Positions 27,427 through 31,280 of a stretch of 64,000 nt of DNA are shown here, in pieces; position 1 is the first letter of the stretch, and every line of letters starts with the position of its first letter. The notes beneath the pieces were generated by a model, which was given only the letters and a program-made list of their open reading frames with translations, was not told where the DNA came from and did not search any database. Source of the DNA: Malacoraja senta (taxonomy: Eukaryota); the NCBI GenBank assembly GCA_038087875.1, contig CM075987.1:16308001-16372000 (forward strand). The letters are read 5' to 3'. Position numbers and translations under genes: made by a program.

Positions 27427-30084
27427 GGATTGTTGTCATGAGCAACCTGTTCTGCCAGTTCTCAACACACCAGATCTCGCTGAGCAAAAGATCAGAGCAT
27501 ACAGTTTATCTTCTACTATTATTCAATGTATACCTTATGTTTCACTACTCACGTTTATTTTAAGGGGCATTGTATTTAGGAAGAGTTTTTGTGGATGACC
27601 CTGAATGCCAGCTGTCCAATAAAGGGTTTGAGAATAACTGTAGCACTGTGGGTAGATCCTTTGACATGGAGAGTCCAGAAGTCAATGCAGGCAGTAGGAC
27701 TCGATTTCTCAATTTGCTCTTTATTGACTCCAAGTATGTGATGTGGCAGTGTGTAGATTTTACAGACAACGTAGTATGCAACTAAATGTGTGAATCAGAA
27801 AGTCAGCAACGGGAATTCCAATCCTCATCTTCACAAGATAAAGTTTTCTGTCATTGTTTTGTTAGTTTGAACACTCTGCTCTCATTATGCCATGATTAAG
27901 ATCTCCTAGTTTGAAACACCAAGCTAGAAAGATGGTATCACAAGGAACAGAAATCCCTCCGGATGACATGTCTACTTCCGTTAGTCTCCACATCGAGGAA
28001 CAACTTCTCCCTGGTTTTAAACCTACTTTGCCCTCTTTTGTCTCCAAGTTTCCCACCTGCCTGACCTCCCACTAAATCTCCCCCAATGCACAAACTCTCA
28101 CCCATGTTCACCATTATGCCCTGGGACCACTCGTCACCCATGGCAACTGCAGTATATCAATTATAAGTCCTGTAGCATGGAAACATGCCCTTTGGCCCAA
28201 CTTGGCCCTGCTGACCAAGGTGCCCCATCTACACCAATCCCACCTCCCCACGTTTGGCCCATATCCCTCTAAACCTTTACTATCCAGGTACCTGTCCAAA
28301 TGTAATTTAATGGTTGTTATAGTACCTGCCTCAACTATCTCCTCCGGCAGCTCGTTCCATATACCCACCACCCTCAGATCGTCCAAACCTCTGTCCTTGG
28401 TTTGTGCACATCAATAATAACAGGCACAGATAATCAGAGGAATCGTATCACACAGAAAGAGGCCATTTAACCATTCAAGTCTAAAGTGTGCCATCTGACT
28501 GTACTTGGTCACATCTCTTCAACCACATATCAAGTACACTTTAACCCTGATCTGTGTTTCTGTCTTTAACCTCTTCCATGGCCGTGAGTTCCCACCACCC
28601 TCTGCATGAACAATGGTTTAATCCCCCCATTAAGCTTTCAAACGATTACCTACAGTCCGTATCTCTTGGTTCCTGAGCACGCTGGGAAGGGAAACCAAAT
28701 TTATCAAGACCAATCAATAATTTATATTCCTCAATAAAATCTACCCTCCGTCTCCTTCGTTCTAAACCTTAGCTTATCCAATTCTTTCTCCTGCTAAAAC
28801 TTTCCATCCTCTCAATGTAATCATACCTTTCCTACAATATGGTGACAAGACTGTGGCCTAACTAATGTTGTACATTCCCAATGAGATTCTTCACCTCTAC
28901 TGATAAAGGAAATGATCATGCATGTGTTTTTATCCCAACCACCTTATCGACCTCTCCTGCTGCCATGAACACACATTCACACACACAATGTGACGTCCCT
29001 CCGTTTCCCCATTCTGCTCGATATCCTCCCATTTAATGAGCATTCCACCACATTGTTGACCTTTCCAAAGGCATTACCTGACACTCCTCTGGAGTGAATT
29101 CTATTTGCGAATTTCCTGCCAACAGAACATCTCCCTTTAGTTATCCAAAGCGCTGGAGAAACTCAGTGGGTCAGACGACATTTCGGGTCGGGGCCCTTCT
29201 TCACACTGGTGATTCATGATTCCAGCATCTGCAATTCCTGGTGCCTCAATCTCCCTGCAGTTGGAAGCTTCCCTCCTCCGTATCAACCATGTTGCTAATT
29301 ACTATCTTATCTTCAAACATCTTTATTATACTACCTATAAGTGTTTAAATAAATGATATGCACTGCACACAACTATAGACCAAGAAACAAAGTTCTCTGG
29401 GACTTCACTGATGAAAGCCTTCCAGTGACACAAACACCTTTCAACACCTTTGTATCTACCACCAATGACAACTTTGGATGTACTTTGCCCTCTCTCTTGT
29501 ATCCCAGGGGCTTCTGCACTTTTGACCAGTTTGCCACGCGTCAAAAGCCTTGGTAAAGTCTACATGGGCTACATTAAACAGGCTGCCCTTATTCTCCAGC
29601 ACAAAGTTAAATTATCTGGTCTGTACTCACGTTGTCCCTCCCTCTCTTTTTTAGCAACAGCACAAAATCAGCATTCTTCCACTTCAGGAAGCTGGGAGCT
29701 TAGGAAAATTGTGCCTAGCTTCTATAATTTCCTTCTTTCAAAAGCCTGGGTAAATCTCACCTGGATTTGGCCATTTATTTATGTTCAGAGAAGTTATAAT
29801 CTTTCGTACTTCCTCTCTTAAACACTACACTCTTGAACGCTACACAACATGTACCTCAGCAACTATGAAGTATGACTGTGTCTTTGGTTGCACTAAAGAC
29901 TTCATGTTGCACTAAGGACTTATTTTGTTCCTTTATTTATCTGTGGGTATTGCATTTACGGGCTTGTTGAACTTTATTGTTCTATTGTTGGTCCATATGA
30001 CAATTAAACACTCTCGACTCATCATGTTCATCCCATACAATATTTCACACAATTCCTCCTTAAAGGCAACATCAGCATCATCTG

Positions 30085-30762
30085 AAGGTAGACAAAAATG
30101 CTGGAGAAACTCAGCGGGTGAGGCAGCATCAATGGAGCGAAGGAATAGGTGACGTTTCGGGTCGAGACCCTTCTTCAGACTGATGTGTGGATGGGGGAGG
30201 GGGAGGGTGTTGGGAAGAAGAAAGGAAGACGCGGGGACGGTGGGCTGTGGGAGAGCTGGGAAGGGGAGGGGAAAGAGGGAGAAAGCAAGGACTACCTGAA
30301 ATTGGAGAAGTCAATGTTCATACCGCTGGGGTGTAAACTACCCAAGCGAAATAGGAGGTGCTGCTCCTCCAATTTGCGGTGGGACTCACTCTGACCATGG
30401 AGGTGGTCCAGGACAGAAAGGTTGGATTCAGAATGGGAGGGATAGTTGAAGTGCTGAGCCACCGGGGAGATCAGGTTGGTTATTGCGAACCGAGCGGAGG
30501 TGTTGGGCGAAGCGATCGCCAAGCCTACGCTTGGTTTCACCAATGTAGAGCAGCTGACACCTAGAACAGCAGATGCAATAGATGAGGTTGGAGGAGGTGC
30601 AGGTCAACCTCTGCCGCACCTGGAACGACTGCTTAGGTCCTTGGATGGAGTCAAGGGGGGAGGTAAAGCGACAAGTGTAGCATTTCCTGCGGTTGCAAGG
30701 GCAAGTACCAGGGGAGGGGGTGGTTTGGGTGGGAAAGGACAAATTGACGAGGGAATCAGCAG
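30085..30762 (-). mobile_element. 5'-truncated Penelope-like retroelement: GIY-YIG endonuclease C-terminus plus pseudo-LTR, with 16-bp TSD
   Basis: Minus-strand frames give CPCNRRKCYTC...SSNLIYCICCSRCQLLYIGETKRRLGDRFAQHLRS and, after a frameshift, PVAQHFN...RKLEEQHLLFRLGSLHPSGMNIDFSNFR*. Flanked by ACATCAGCATCATCTG at 30069-30084 and 30763-30778. Confidence 0.92.
30151..30178 (-). ncRNA. Minimal hammerhead ribozyme motif in the Penelope pseudo-LTR
   Basis: Minus strand CTGAAGA-A-GGGT-CTCG-ACCC-GAAA-CG-TC: conserved core, 4-bp stem II, palindromic ACGT stem III, GUC cleavage triplet. Stem I is short. Confidence 0.7.
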
Positions 30763-31280
30763 ACATCAGCATCATCTGCCTCTTTTATGAAGTCAGGCAC
30801 AAGATATTCATTCAGAACCTCCCCACTTCCATCACATCGTATCTCGGTTAGCGTTTTGAACCCAACAAACCTTTACTTTTTCCTTCATTATTTTCTTGTT
30901 CTTTACGTGACTATAATATGCCAACGGGAGCCTCAGTGGCGGTGGGGCCTCGCGGTTGATGAGCGTGAGGGGGGGAGGGGAAGACAATGGGGACCCGGTG
31001 TGGGGGGATACCCCGCGTTTTCCCTCCGGGGATGAATAAAGTTCTATCGTATCATATCGTGCCGTATCGTATACATCCCACATAGTTTCATTTGGCAATC
31101 CTTCTAATACCTCATCTCTTCTCACAAATGAAATGATTTCTTCAACCAATATTGCCCAATGTTTTATCTCCGGAAACAACTTGGATTGACCAAGACTTCA
31201 AAACCTGGCAAGGATTGTGTGAAGGACTGATGTACCCCAGTGCTTCACACAGACAGGCCACTCCACCATTGACTACACAT

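What the first reader, a model, noticed from the sequence alone, without database searches (positions are those of the whole stretch)
30069..30778. Young Penelope-like insertion carrying an intact minimal hammerhead ribozyme, in the sense of the dnm1 pre-mRNA
Seen: a 678-bp insert with a perfect 16-bp TSD encodes the C-terminal GIY-YIG endonuclease. About 115 nt after its stop codon is CUGAAGA-A-GGGU[CUCG]ACCC-GAAA-CG-UC, which has the hammerhead core, stem II, a palindromic ACGU stem III and a GUC triplet. Known: Penelope-like elements carry minimal type I hammerheads in their pseudo-LTRs that work as dimers through a palindromic helix III, and an extra nucleotide after A9 is tolerated in natural hammerheads. 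Inference: this is a recently active ribozyme-bearing family, and this copy is transcribed with every dnm1 pre-mRNA. Caveat: stem I predicted by eye is only about 2 bp.
Basis: partly seen in the sequence, partly recalled or inferred. Interest (0 to 1): 0.75.

Follow-up and report, generated by a model that had tools for sequence, protein, structure and literature searches.

The report
Dead Penelope copy with hammerhead motif
A decayed fragment of a Penelope-like jumping gene sits in an intron of the dynamin-1 gene and carries that family's usual minimal hammerhead-ribozyme motif, one of many thousands of identical copies in this genome, so it is an ordinary repeat and not a special ribozyme.

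Summary
A 678-bp insert (30085-30762, minus strand) lies between perfect 16-bp direct repeats. It encodes a GIY-YIG endonuclease remnant. At 30178-30151 it carries CUGAAGA-A-GGGU(CUCG)ACCC-GAAA-CG-UC, which fits the published minimal hammerhead of Penelope-like elements: extra base after A9, G10.1-C11.1, palindromic 15.2/16.2 and no loop III. It lies sense in a 27.9-kb intron of a dynamin-1 orthologue.

- The copy is not young. It has 23 private substitutions in 678 bp, a frameshift, and a terminal branch of about 4%, like its relatives.
- None of 150 scored relatives has an open frame above 541 aa.
- The motif is not special: 18,728 identical 28-mers and 61,500 motif-intact variants occur in the genome.
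- Stem I is 2 bp. Predicted folding favours an inactive conformer by about 7 kcal/mol.
- 117 copies show no significant covariation.
- Rfam finds no hammerhead, but it also missed a control.
- One RNA run shows no pile-up of RNA ends.

Published work reports such monomers as inactive in vitro. Most likely this is a passively transcribed, catalytically inert relic of a known kind. The roughly 97-99-nt motif-plus-tail module also occurs as repeat-flanked solo copies and 99-bp tandem arrays.

The parts
30069..30084 (.). Target-site duplication, 3' side of the element (element is on the minus strand)
   Evidence: Identical 16-mer to 30763-30778
30763..30778 (.). Target-site duplication, 5' side of the element
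   Evidence: Identical 16-mer to 30069-30084
30085..30762 (-). Whole insert: 5'-truncated Penelope-like element copy, 678 bp
   Evidence: Pairwise identity 89-92% to 12 or more genomic relatives over about 670 bp. The family is hugely repeated in three DNA runs.
30755..30762 (-). 8 nt of non-homologous filler at the 5' junction
   Evidence: Six relatives carry different, mutually homologous sequence here and continue upstream
30292..30754 (-). Remnant of the C-terminal linker and GIY-YIG endonuclease coding region, in two frames; stop codon at 30292-30294
   Evidence: ORF list. Pfam GIY-YIG 23.4 bits. One surplus base near 30464 relative to most family reads shifts the frame (table 4).
30151..30178 (-). 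Minimal hammerhead-like motif: C3-A9 CUGAAGA, extra A, stem II GGGU/ACCC with loop CUCG, GAAA, palindromic CG, U16.1 C17. The predicted cut is between 30151 and 30150.
   Evidence: Sequence. Descriptor scan. Features match PMC4209133.
30085..30150 (-). 3' tail downstream of the predicted cut, with nested hairpin-forming repeats (AUGCUG...CAGCAU)
   Evidence: Conserved at about 90% per column across 85 copies. Part of the predicted fold.
30085..30181 (-). The roughly 97-nt motif-plus-tail module that is shared by all subfamilies and far outnumbers the rest of the element
   Evidence: The nhmmer profile starts at 30181. Summed contig depth is 2-3e7 here against 1-7e6 for the rest of the insert and 20-50 for the unique flank.
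35781..35900 (-). Upstream flanking dynamin-1 exon (aa 514-553 of shark dynamin-1 P0071)
   Evidence: tblastn, 90% identity
7758..7871 (-). Downstream flanking dynamin-1 exon (aa 553-590 of P0071)
   Evidence: tblastn, 97% identity
17086..17113 (-). Second sense copy of the motif in the same intron, with C15.2 changed to U (GAAAUGUC)
   Evidence: the DNA search, 1 mismatch
9854..9881 (+). The only other descriptor-intact motif in the window (CTGATGAGGGGTCCTGACCCGAAACGTC), antisense to the gene
   Evidence: Descriptor scan

Best explanation
This is a dead, 5'-truncated copy of a canonical endonuclease-bearing Penelope-like retrotransposon. It inserted by target-primed reverse transcription into what is now a 27.9-kb intron of the dynamin-1 orthologue, in the gene's sense. 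Its 3' end is the family's conserved module of about 97 nt. That module is a minimal type-I hammerhead motif (no helix III, 2-bp helix I, 4-bp helix II) followed by a structured tail, presumably where the element's reverse transcriptase starts.

Shown: the anatomy, the family membership, the copy numbers, the age estimate and the host-gene context.

Inferred:
- In the element's own life cycle the motif acts, if at all, in tandem or paired copies, or with the element's protein.
- In this lone intronic copy it is transcribed passively with the pre-mRNA, folds into a competing structure and does not cleave at any meaningful rate.
- Its intact core is chance survival of three CpG sites, not selection at this locus.
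For: Anatomy: 16-bp duplication and 678-bp insert; GIY-YIG hit; relatives continue upstream of the truncation point; a relative, L075, has RVT_1 and GIY-YIG in one 541-aa frame, followed by the same motif and tail.

Motif: every hammerhead core base is present, together with the three non-descriptor features listed for metazoan Penelope-like hammerheads: a base between 9 and 10.1, G10.1-C11.1, and palindromic 15.2-16.2 (PMC4209133).

Ordinariness:
- 18,728 exact 28-mers in the genome, with 0 in the reversed-pattern control.
- 61,500 matches to CTGANGANGGGNNNNNNCCCGAAACGTH, control 0.
- 34 module hits in this 64-kb window alone.
- 15 of 85 copies pass the descriptor.

Age: 23 private differences in 678 bp, 10 of them C>T; terminal branch 0.043; mean distance to relatives 7.7% against 7.5% among the relatives.

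Inertness:
- The MFE fold of the 116-nt region is -20.3 kcal/mol and pairs GAAGAAGGG with the CCUAUUCCUUC stretch. The best hammerhead-compatible fold is -13.4.
- A dimer forced through the ACGU helix III is -38.5, against -45.1 for the free dimer and -40.6 for two monomers.
- PMC4209133 reports no detectable cleavage by a single motif and low activity of dimers.
- PMC11167929 reports an Anolis element's hammerhead that cleaves only with the element's protein. It is not needed for insertion in vitro and leaves no RNA-seq ends at the cut site.
- Sense module copies are not depleted in this stretch of the gene: 18 sense against 9 antisense, after dropping 7 hits that belong to one 26-bp array.

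Host: dynamin exons on the minus strand are 80-100% identical to catshark dynamin-1.
Against: No experiment here shows that the copy is inactive. Energies are nearest-neighbour predictions that ignore tertiary contacts, proteins and co-transcriptional folding.

The core is fully intact. A second sense copy lies 13 kb downstream in the same intron, and its AUGU could pair with ACGU through one G-U. Thousands of identical motifs are transcribed in both orientations in the one RNA run laid, so partners in trans exist.

The RNA run gave zero depth on the unique flanks of this locus, so it says nothing about this copy. Its blank table of read ends concerns poly(A) RNA of a related organism, with reads from many copies mixed.

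The age estimate rests on the 12 relatives with near-full coverage, taken from the 40 scored of 1,733 or more first-look candidates. A closer relative could have been missed.
Confidence: 0.8

Rival explanations
1. The motif in this copy is a working ribozyme that cuts the dynamin-1 pre-mRNA. It would pair through the palindromic ACGU with another copy, either the one at 17086-17113 in the same intron or copies in trans, or it would be helped by a Penelope-like element protein or a chaperone. It would thereby affect dynamin-1 or mir-199 output.
For: All core bases and stem II are intact. The copy is in sense orientation in a long intron together with a second sense copy. Published dimers of such motifs cleave weakly (PMC4209133; review PMC6765202). 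Module RNA is abundant in the RNA run.
Against: Helix I is 2 bp. Helix III would be a 4-bp intermolecular helix. The predicted active fold is 6-7 kcal/mol worse than the alternatives. Published monomers are inactive. No read-end pile-up was seen in the RNA run (table 6). Sense copies are not depleted in this gene. The family shows no intact reading frame among the 150 copies scored, so a helper protein of this family may not be made.
Confidence: 0.05
2. The conserved module is not kept for self-cleavage at all. It is the recognition and start site for the element's reverse transcriptase, or a selfish passenger. The hammerhead-like core would then be a vestige whose catalytic role is lost in this lineage.
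For: The motif is no more conserved than the tail: about 90% per column along the whole module. Stems show no significant covariation in 117 copies: 88.2% of cells paired against 88.0% in shuffles, with 157 of 500 shuffles as high. Copy 5' ends do not cluster at the predicted cut (2 of 136 hits start there). Rfam hammerhead models do not match. PMC11167929 found cleavage dispensable for insertion in vitro. PMC8557442 notes that hammerhead-free clades proliferate well and that the motifs may 'simply parasitize' the elements.
Against: Every core base, the G10.1-C11.1 pair, the extra base and the CG palindrome are kept in both major variants. In the first 100 listed matches, 31 are V1 and 28 are V2. 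The two variants differ only at a loop base, at 11.4 (U-A to U-G) and at position 17 (C to U), all places where a hammerhead tolerates change. That pattern fixed the core, so it cannot show core variants. The Rfam blank is weak, because the same scan also missed a complete hammerhead-like motif in another family of this genome.
Confidence: 0.15

Closest known systems
Minimal hammerheads (min-HHR) of metazoan Penelope-like elements (Cervera and De la Pena 2014, PMC4209133)
   Same: Type-I order of elements; full catalytic core; an unpaired base between A9 and G10.1; G10.1-C11.1; palindromic 15.2-16.2 with no loop III; location in the non-coding end of a GIY-YIG Penelope-like element; thousands of mostly solitary copies per genome; many copies in inverted or tandem pairs.
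   Different: Helix II is 4 bp with a tetraloop, against the 6-8 bp described. Helix I is 2 bp, against the usual 4-5 (2 bp is described only for the Drosophila virilis element). The sequence is very uniform, whereas the paper stresses extreme variability. The count is higher: 61,500 motif-intact copies against about 4,000-9,000 reported for coelacanth and Xenopus.
Canonical endonuclease-bearing Penelope-like elements of fishes (Neptune, Poseidon, Xena)
   Same: Reverse transcriptase followed by a C-terminal GIY-YIG endonuclease with cysteines between GIY and YIG; variable target-site duplication; 5' truncation; no poly(A); tandem and inverted partial copies (PMC8557442 passages).
   Different: The clade was not determined by a tree. 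The linker CNRRKCYTC upstream of GIY fits the CX2-5CxxC linker motif that associates with Neptune elements, but this was read by eye only. This copy lacks the reverse transcriptase entirely.
Non-LTR retrozymes and hammerhead satellites of animals (newt satellite 2, Schistosoma Sm-alpha; preprint 10.64898/2026.07.22.740005)
   Same: Short hammerhead-bearing units in head-to-tail arrays, with many dispersed monomers. They derive from the ends of Penelope-like elements. Here there is a 99-bp array of 3.7 units, 40 exact head-to-tail junctions and solo units flanked by target duplications.
   Different: Those units carry hammerheads with a real helix I and loop contacts, and their circular RNAs have been detected. 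Here circular RNA was not tested and helix I is 2 bp. The unit is short at about 99 nt. The preprint reports consensus lengths of 51-972 bp, and 363 bp for its one cartilaginous fish.
Hammerhead of the Anolis Poseidon element PAc (PMC11167929)
   Same: A Penelope-like hammerhead of doubtful autonomous activity. Reverse transcription starts at an internal site, which gives a family-specific tail.
   Different: In PAc the motif overlaps the start of the reading frame in the pseudo-LTR. Here it lies 113 nt after the stop codon and 66 nt from the 3' end. PAc activity was measured, whereas nothing was measured here.
Conserved intronic hammerheads of amniotes (RECK, CTCL; figure legend in PMC6155905)
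   Same: A hammerhead motif in the sense strand of an intron of a host gene.
   Different: Those are complete, efficient, single-copy motifs conserved across species. This one is a minimal repeat-derived motif with no sign of conservation at the locus.

Membership tests
Penelope-like element (canonical, endonuclease-bearing) | Single reading frame with reverse transcriptase followed by a C-terminal GIY-YIG endonuclease | tested here: met
   The window copy keeps only the endonuclease (Pfam GIY-YIG 23.4 bits, cut-off 22.6). Relative L075 has RVT_1 (24.6 bits, below the 29.6 cut-off, E 2.3e-5) and GIY-YIG (21.3 bits, below cut-off) in that order in one 541-aa frame. Both domain hits in the relative are weak.
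Penelope-like element (canonical, endonuclease-bearing) | [quoted passage not shown] | tested here: met
   The translation reads LIYCICCSRCQLLYIGET. This was read by eye against the description in PMC8557442. The histidines were not checked against an alignment.
Penelope-like element (canonical, endonuclease-bearing) | Insertion with a variable target-site duplication, frequent 5' truncation, no poly(A) | tested here: met
   16-bp duplication; relatives extend upstream of the 5' end; the 3' end is ...GTCTACCTT(C) with no A-run.
Penelope-like element (canonical, endonuclease-bearing) | Pseudo-LTR, meaning a partial tandem arrangement | tested here: not met
   This copy is solitary. Tandem and inverted arrangements exist elsewhere in the family.
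Hammerhead ribozyme, minimal Penelope-like type | Catalytic core C3 U4 G5 A6 N7 G8 A9 ... G12 A13 A14 A15.1 ... U16.1 H17 | tested here: met
   CUGAAGA ... GAAA ... UC at 30178-30151
Hammerhead ribozyme, minimal Penelope-like type | Extra base between 9 and 10.1; G10.1-C11.1; palindromic 15.2-16.2 without loop III | tested here: met
   A; G-C; CG, compared with the list in PMC4209133
Hammerhead ribozyme, minimal Penelope-like type | Helix I of 4-5 bp (2 bp only in the Drosophila virilis variant) | tested here: inconclusive
   Only U2.1-A1.1 and G2.2-C1.2 can pair, and the next two positions mismatch. In 117 copies these two pairs hold in 85.8% of cells.
Hammerhead ribozyme, minimal Penelope-like type | Compensatory changes in the stems across the family | tested here: not met
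   Covariation score 0.126 against a shuffle mean of 0.121 (89 of 500 as high). Pairs with double changes 6 against 3.5 (12 of 500 as high). The stems hardly vary, so the test has little power.
Hammerhead ribozyme, minimal Penelope-like type | Self-cleavage at H17 | not testable with these tools
   The only indirect data are that no place in the one RNA run laid shows many molecules beginning or ending (table 6), and that run had zero depth on this locus's unique flanks.
Hammerhead ribozyme, Rfam families (types I, II, III, HH9, HH10) | Match to a curated covariance model | tested here: not met
   No hammerhead match at E up to 10 in 29900-30950 or at gathering score in the window. The same scan missed a complete hammerhead-like motif in L048, so the test is insensitive to this class.
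Non-LTR retrozyme | Tandem arrays of hammerhead-bearing units | tested here: met
   This holds for the family, not for this copy: a 99-bp period with 3.7 copies in L083, and 40 exact head-to-tail junctions against 0 in the control.
Non-LTR retrozyme | Unit-length circular RNA | not tested
   It needs RNase R treatment or back-splice reads.

The most novel reading that the evidence does not exclude
The roughly 97-99-nt motif-plus-tail module is not merely the end of a Penelope-like element. It is itself a very small, very successful non-autonomous element, a mini-retrozyme. It would be copied from a unit-length (possibly circular) RNA by the reverse transcriptase of Penelope-like elements.

This would explain three observations: the sharp 5' boundary 2-3 nt before CUGA, the uniform head-to-tail junctions, and the 99-bp arrays. 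With tens of thousands of intact motifs spread through long introns, paired sense copies could then cut host pre-mRNAs at a low rate.
Probability: 0.12. Interest if true: 0.55.

Novelty: new member of a known kind. Interest (0 to 1): 0.2.

Why it matters
For dynamin-1 it probably does not matter. The copy is one of 18 or so sense module copies in this stretch of the gene and shows no sign of activity or of selection.

At the family level the genome is a rich natural sample of one minimal hammerhead variant: 61,500 motif-intact copies in two main variants, with solo, inverted and tandem forms. Such a sample could serve to test three questions that are still open in the literature read here:
- whether Penelope-like minimal hammerheads cleave in vivo;
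- whether they need a partner copy or a protein;
- whether short tail-derived units spread through circular RNA.

Tried and rejected
- Rfam scans found no hammerhead (E up to 10 on 1,051 nt, gathering score on the window). I rejected this as evidence against the motif after the control on L048 also failed.
- The covariation count on 117 copies showed no signal. It is uninformative because the stems are nearly invariant and most variation is CpG decay.
- The look-up of sequencing runs listed no RNA holder of this stretch.
- The RNA raw-read run X24 gave zero depth on the unique flanks, so it offers no information on this copy.
- Contigs that cross the 3' junction in two DNA runs carry only 25-26 nt of the insert. 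These are X18 record 2 (29985-30109, 0 differences) and X19 record 10 (29997-30110, 4 differences). That is below the tool's 31-nt rule, so I make no claim about whether the insertion is shared between organisms.
- The open frame that seems to run through both flanks of the insert has no Pfam match. I dropped it as probably spurious.
- A longer helix I between CAUCAGU and AUUGAUG appears in the MFE fold. In this copy it depends on a private change at 30131 and on 3'-UTR sequence that other subfamilies lack, so I did not adopt it.
- The target-duplication search around modules gave 11 of 118 with a shared word of 10 nt or more, against a control mean of 2.8. Five of the 11 are artefacts of tandem junctions and at least one more is a shared repeat piece. 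Only three or so clean cases remain.
- A wider random sample of the genome for subfamily analysis was not obtainable.
- Lunse et al. 2017 (PMC5785218) is not held. I cite it only through the review PMC6765202.
- Three look-ups of earlier findings returned nothing.
- One literature search for Penelope, shark and hammerhead ribozyme found one paper, and there 'shark' refers to the shape of the motif.
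Full report
**What is at the coordinates**

The 16-mer ACATCAGCATCATCTG stands at 30069-30084 and again at 30763-30778, with 678 bp between the two copies. Read on the minus strand, the insert starts with 8 nt that relatives do not share (30762-30755). It then runs through the end of a reading frame whose translation holds CPCNRRKCYTC ... 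LIYCICCSRCQLLYIGET. This stretch matches Pfam GIY-YIG at 23.4 bits against a cut-off of 22.6.

The frame is broken once. It continues in another frame to a stop at 30292-30294. The break coincides with one base near 30464 that most family reads lack: in run X18, 580,369 of 734,632 summed depth, from 58 contigs.

The motif CTGAAGAAGGGTCTCGACCCGAAACGTC follows 113 nt after the stop, at 30178-30151. A further 66 nt of tail end the element at ...GTCTACCTT(C). Six relatives carry homologous sequence upstream of the point where this copy begins, so it is a true 5' truncation. A relative, L075, has RVT_1 (24.6 bits, below cut-off) and GIY-YIG (21.3 bits, below cut-off) in one 541-aa open frame, followed by the same 3' region. 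The element is therefore a canonical endonuclease-bearing Penelope-like element. The linker fits the CX2-5CxxC linker motif that passages of PMC8557442 associate with Neptune elements, but I built no tree.

**The motif**

It has every conserved hammerhead core base, and the following helices:
- Stem II is a 4-bp helix, GGGU/ACCC, with loop CUCG.
- There is no helix III of its own.
- Helix I is 2 bp.

It also has three features that Cervera and De la Pena list as emerging, unforced, in the minimal hammerheads of metazoan Penelope-like elements (PMC4209133, main text read):
- a base between A9 and G10.1;
- G10.1-C11.1;
- a palindromic 15.2-16.2.

A descriptor of my own for this class hits the window twice, here and at 9854 (+), and hits 0 of 100 Markov simulations.

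Rfam finds no hammerhead at E up to 10. That blank weighs little. The same scan also missed a motif in L048 that has all three helices by eye and belongs to another Penelope-like family of this genome.

**How ordinary it is**

Several counts show that the motif is common in this genome:
- The exact 28-mer occurs 18,728 times, with 0 in the control.
- A version left free at N7, the extra base, six inner stem-loop bases and position 17 occurs 61,500 times, with 0 in the control.
- Among the first 100 listed matches, 31 are this copy's variant. Another 28 are a second variant, GGGTTTCGGCCC...GTT. It differs at a loop base, turns U-A into U-G, and has U at position 17.
- A profile of the roughly 97-nt motif-plus-tail module finds 34 hits in this window and 136 in 253.7 kb of window plus loci. 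The loci were chosen for holding such copies, so only the window figure is unbiased.
- Similarity between subfamilies begins 3 nt before CUGA.
- Of 85 copies that cover the motif, 15 pass the descriptor. Most failures are CpG-to-TpG or CpG-to-CpA changes at the three CpGs of the motif.

An intact core in this copy is therefore unremarkable.

**Age and activity of the family**

Over about 670 bp the copy is 7.7% from 12 relatives, and they are 7.5% from each other. Its terminal branch is 0.043, against 0.026-0.054 for the relatives. It differs at 23 of 678 sites from what at least 80% of the relatives share, and 10 of these differences are C>T. These 12 are the relatives with near-full coverage among the 40 scored of at least 1,733 candidates.

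A perfect 16-bp duplication is compatible with this age. At about 4% divergence, roughly one change is expected in the 32 bases of the two copies together.

None of the 150 scored endonuclease matches (of 55,555 first-look candidates) has an open frame above 541 aa. I see no support for 'young' or 'recently active', though a rare intact master cannot be excluded.

**Host context**

Dynamin_M and GED exons lie on the minus strand of the same contig on both sides of the window. The exon at 59052-58909 is 94% identical to catshark dynamin-1 (P0071), the best-identity named match.

tblastn with that protein places seven exons in the window at 80-100% identity. A coelacanth dynamin-2 scores 73-87% on the same exons. 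The insert lies between the exons at 35900-35781 and 7871-7758. It shares this intron with mir-199 (23209-23288, plus strand, 95.2 bits).

**Would it cut?**

Predicted folding argues against it:
- The 116-nt region folds best (-20.3 kcal/mol) with the core's GAAGAAGGG paired to CCUAUUCCUUC. The best hammerhead-compatible fold is -13.4.
- A dimer held by the intermolecular ACGU helix is -38.5, against -45.1 for the free dimer and -40.6 for two monomers.

Published experiments point the same way:
- A single minimal motif did not cleave, and dimers and trimers cleaved poorly (PMC4209133).
- The Anolis element's hammerhead cleaved only with its protein. It was dispensable for insertion in vitro and left no RNA-seq ends (PMC11167929, passages).

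- In the one RNA run laid (poly(A) RNA, a related organism), no position showed a pile-up of read starts or ends. That run had no reads on this locus's unique flanks, and 97% of the reads laid ran on into other sequence.
- Sense module copies are not depleted in this part of the gene. There are 25 minus-strand hits against 9 plus-strand hits, or 18 against 9 after removing 7 hits of one 26-bp array.

None of this is an assay. I put about 5% on meaningful cleavage of the pre-mRNA.

**Covariation**

On 117 distinct copies the named structure pairs in 88.2% of cells, against 88.0% in shuffles (157 of 500 as high). The two count-based measures reach 12 and 10 of 500. That is no support, but the stems barely vary, so it is no refutation either. 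The case for a hammerhead rests on the exact match to a described class in the expected element, not on covariation.

**The module beyond this copy**

- Forty exact head-to-tail junctions exist, with 0 in the control. Twenty of them share the same join, CTT-CAG-TCTGAAG.
- L083 holds a 99-bp array of 3.7 units. DNA contigs of three runs show the same 96-nt step back.
- Some dimers join units of different subfamilies (L062 and L066).
- Some solo modules are flanked by their own duplications, for example 20 bp around L012:484-584.
- Only 2 of 136 hits start at the predicted cut site.

This pattern resembles the non-LTR retrozymes that a 2026 preprint derives from the ends of Penelope-like elements (10.64898/2026.07.22.740005; abstract and Results part 1 read). 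I did not test for circular RNA, and the sharp 5' boundary remains unexplained.

**Verdict**

This is a new member of a known kind, of low interest as a locus and moderate interest as a family.

Noticed in passing
L048 (G000:C5550:29612-32863), about 1976-2345; also L032, L034-L060: A second Penelope-like family has intact 759-aa open frames in tandem arrays, for example at C14:18.24-18.41 Mb. Between units there are two blocks of (CCCTAA)n, followed by a hammerhead-like motif with all three helices by eye: CTGACGA-A-GCTA(CAGTGA)TAGC-GAAA-CTGG(11-nt loop)CCAG-TC, with helix I CTCTTTCC/GGGAAGAG. Reverse-complement telomeric repeats next to a hammerhead are described for endonuclease-lacking clades (PMC8557442), yet this family has a GIY-YIG hit (30.8 bits). 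Rfam did not detect the motif.
   Followed up: partly
window 60570-61070: A 26-bp unit (19.3 copies, 94% matches) has expanded inside a module copy, between the predicted cut site and the tail hairpin. It creates long spurious open frames on the minus strand.
   Followed up: partly
window 23209-23288 (+): A mir-199 precursor (95.2 bits, gathering score 60) lies antisense to dynamin-1 in the same 27.9-kb intron as the insert.
   Followed up: no
window 16074-16243 and 38334-38499; also 9757-9943: There are head-to-head inverted pairs of modules. Two of the loci share the same spacer and flanks, so they are copies of one composite repeat. The transcripts would form long hairpins.
   Followed up: no
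G000:C1:3997405-3997470; window coordinates 30181/30182 to 30145: The hammerhead part alone occurs in tandem with a period of 37-40 nt. Two exact 28-mers lie 38 nt apart, and several contigs in DNA run X21 show the same step back. This would place two motifs side by side.
   Followed up: no
window 30217-30404, RNA run X24: Reads whose first mate lies on the minus strand outnumber the others 3- to 6-fold over the 3' UTR and endonuclease part. The two directions are nearly equal over the module. These are mixed reads from many copies, and I did not interpret them.
   Followed up: no
window 59052-58909: Several database proteins scored about twice as high as single-copy matches on this exon, which suggests gene models that include both alternative copies of the exon. 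The second copy was not looked for in the window.
   Followed up: no
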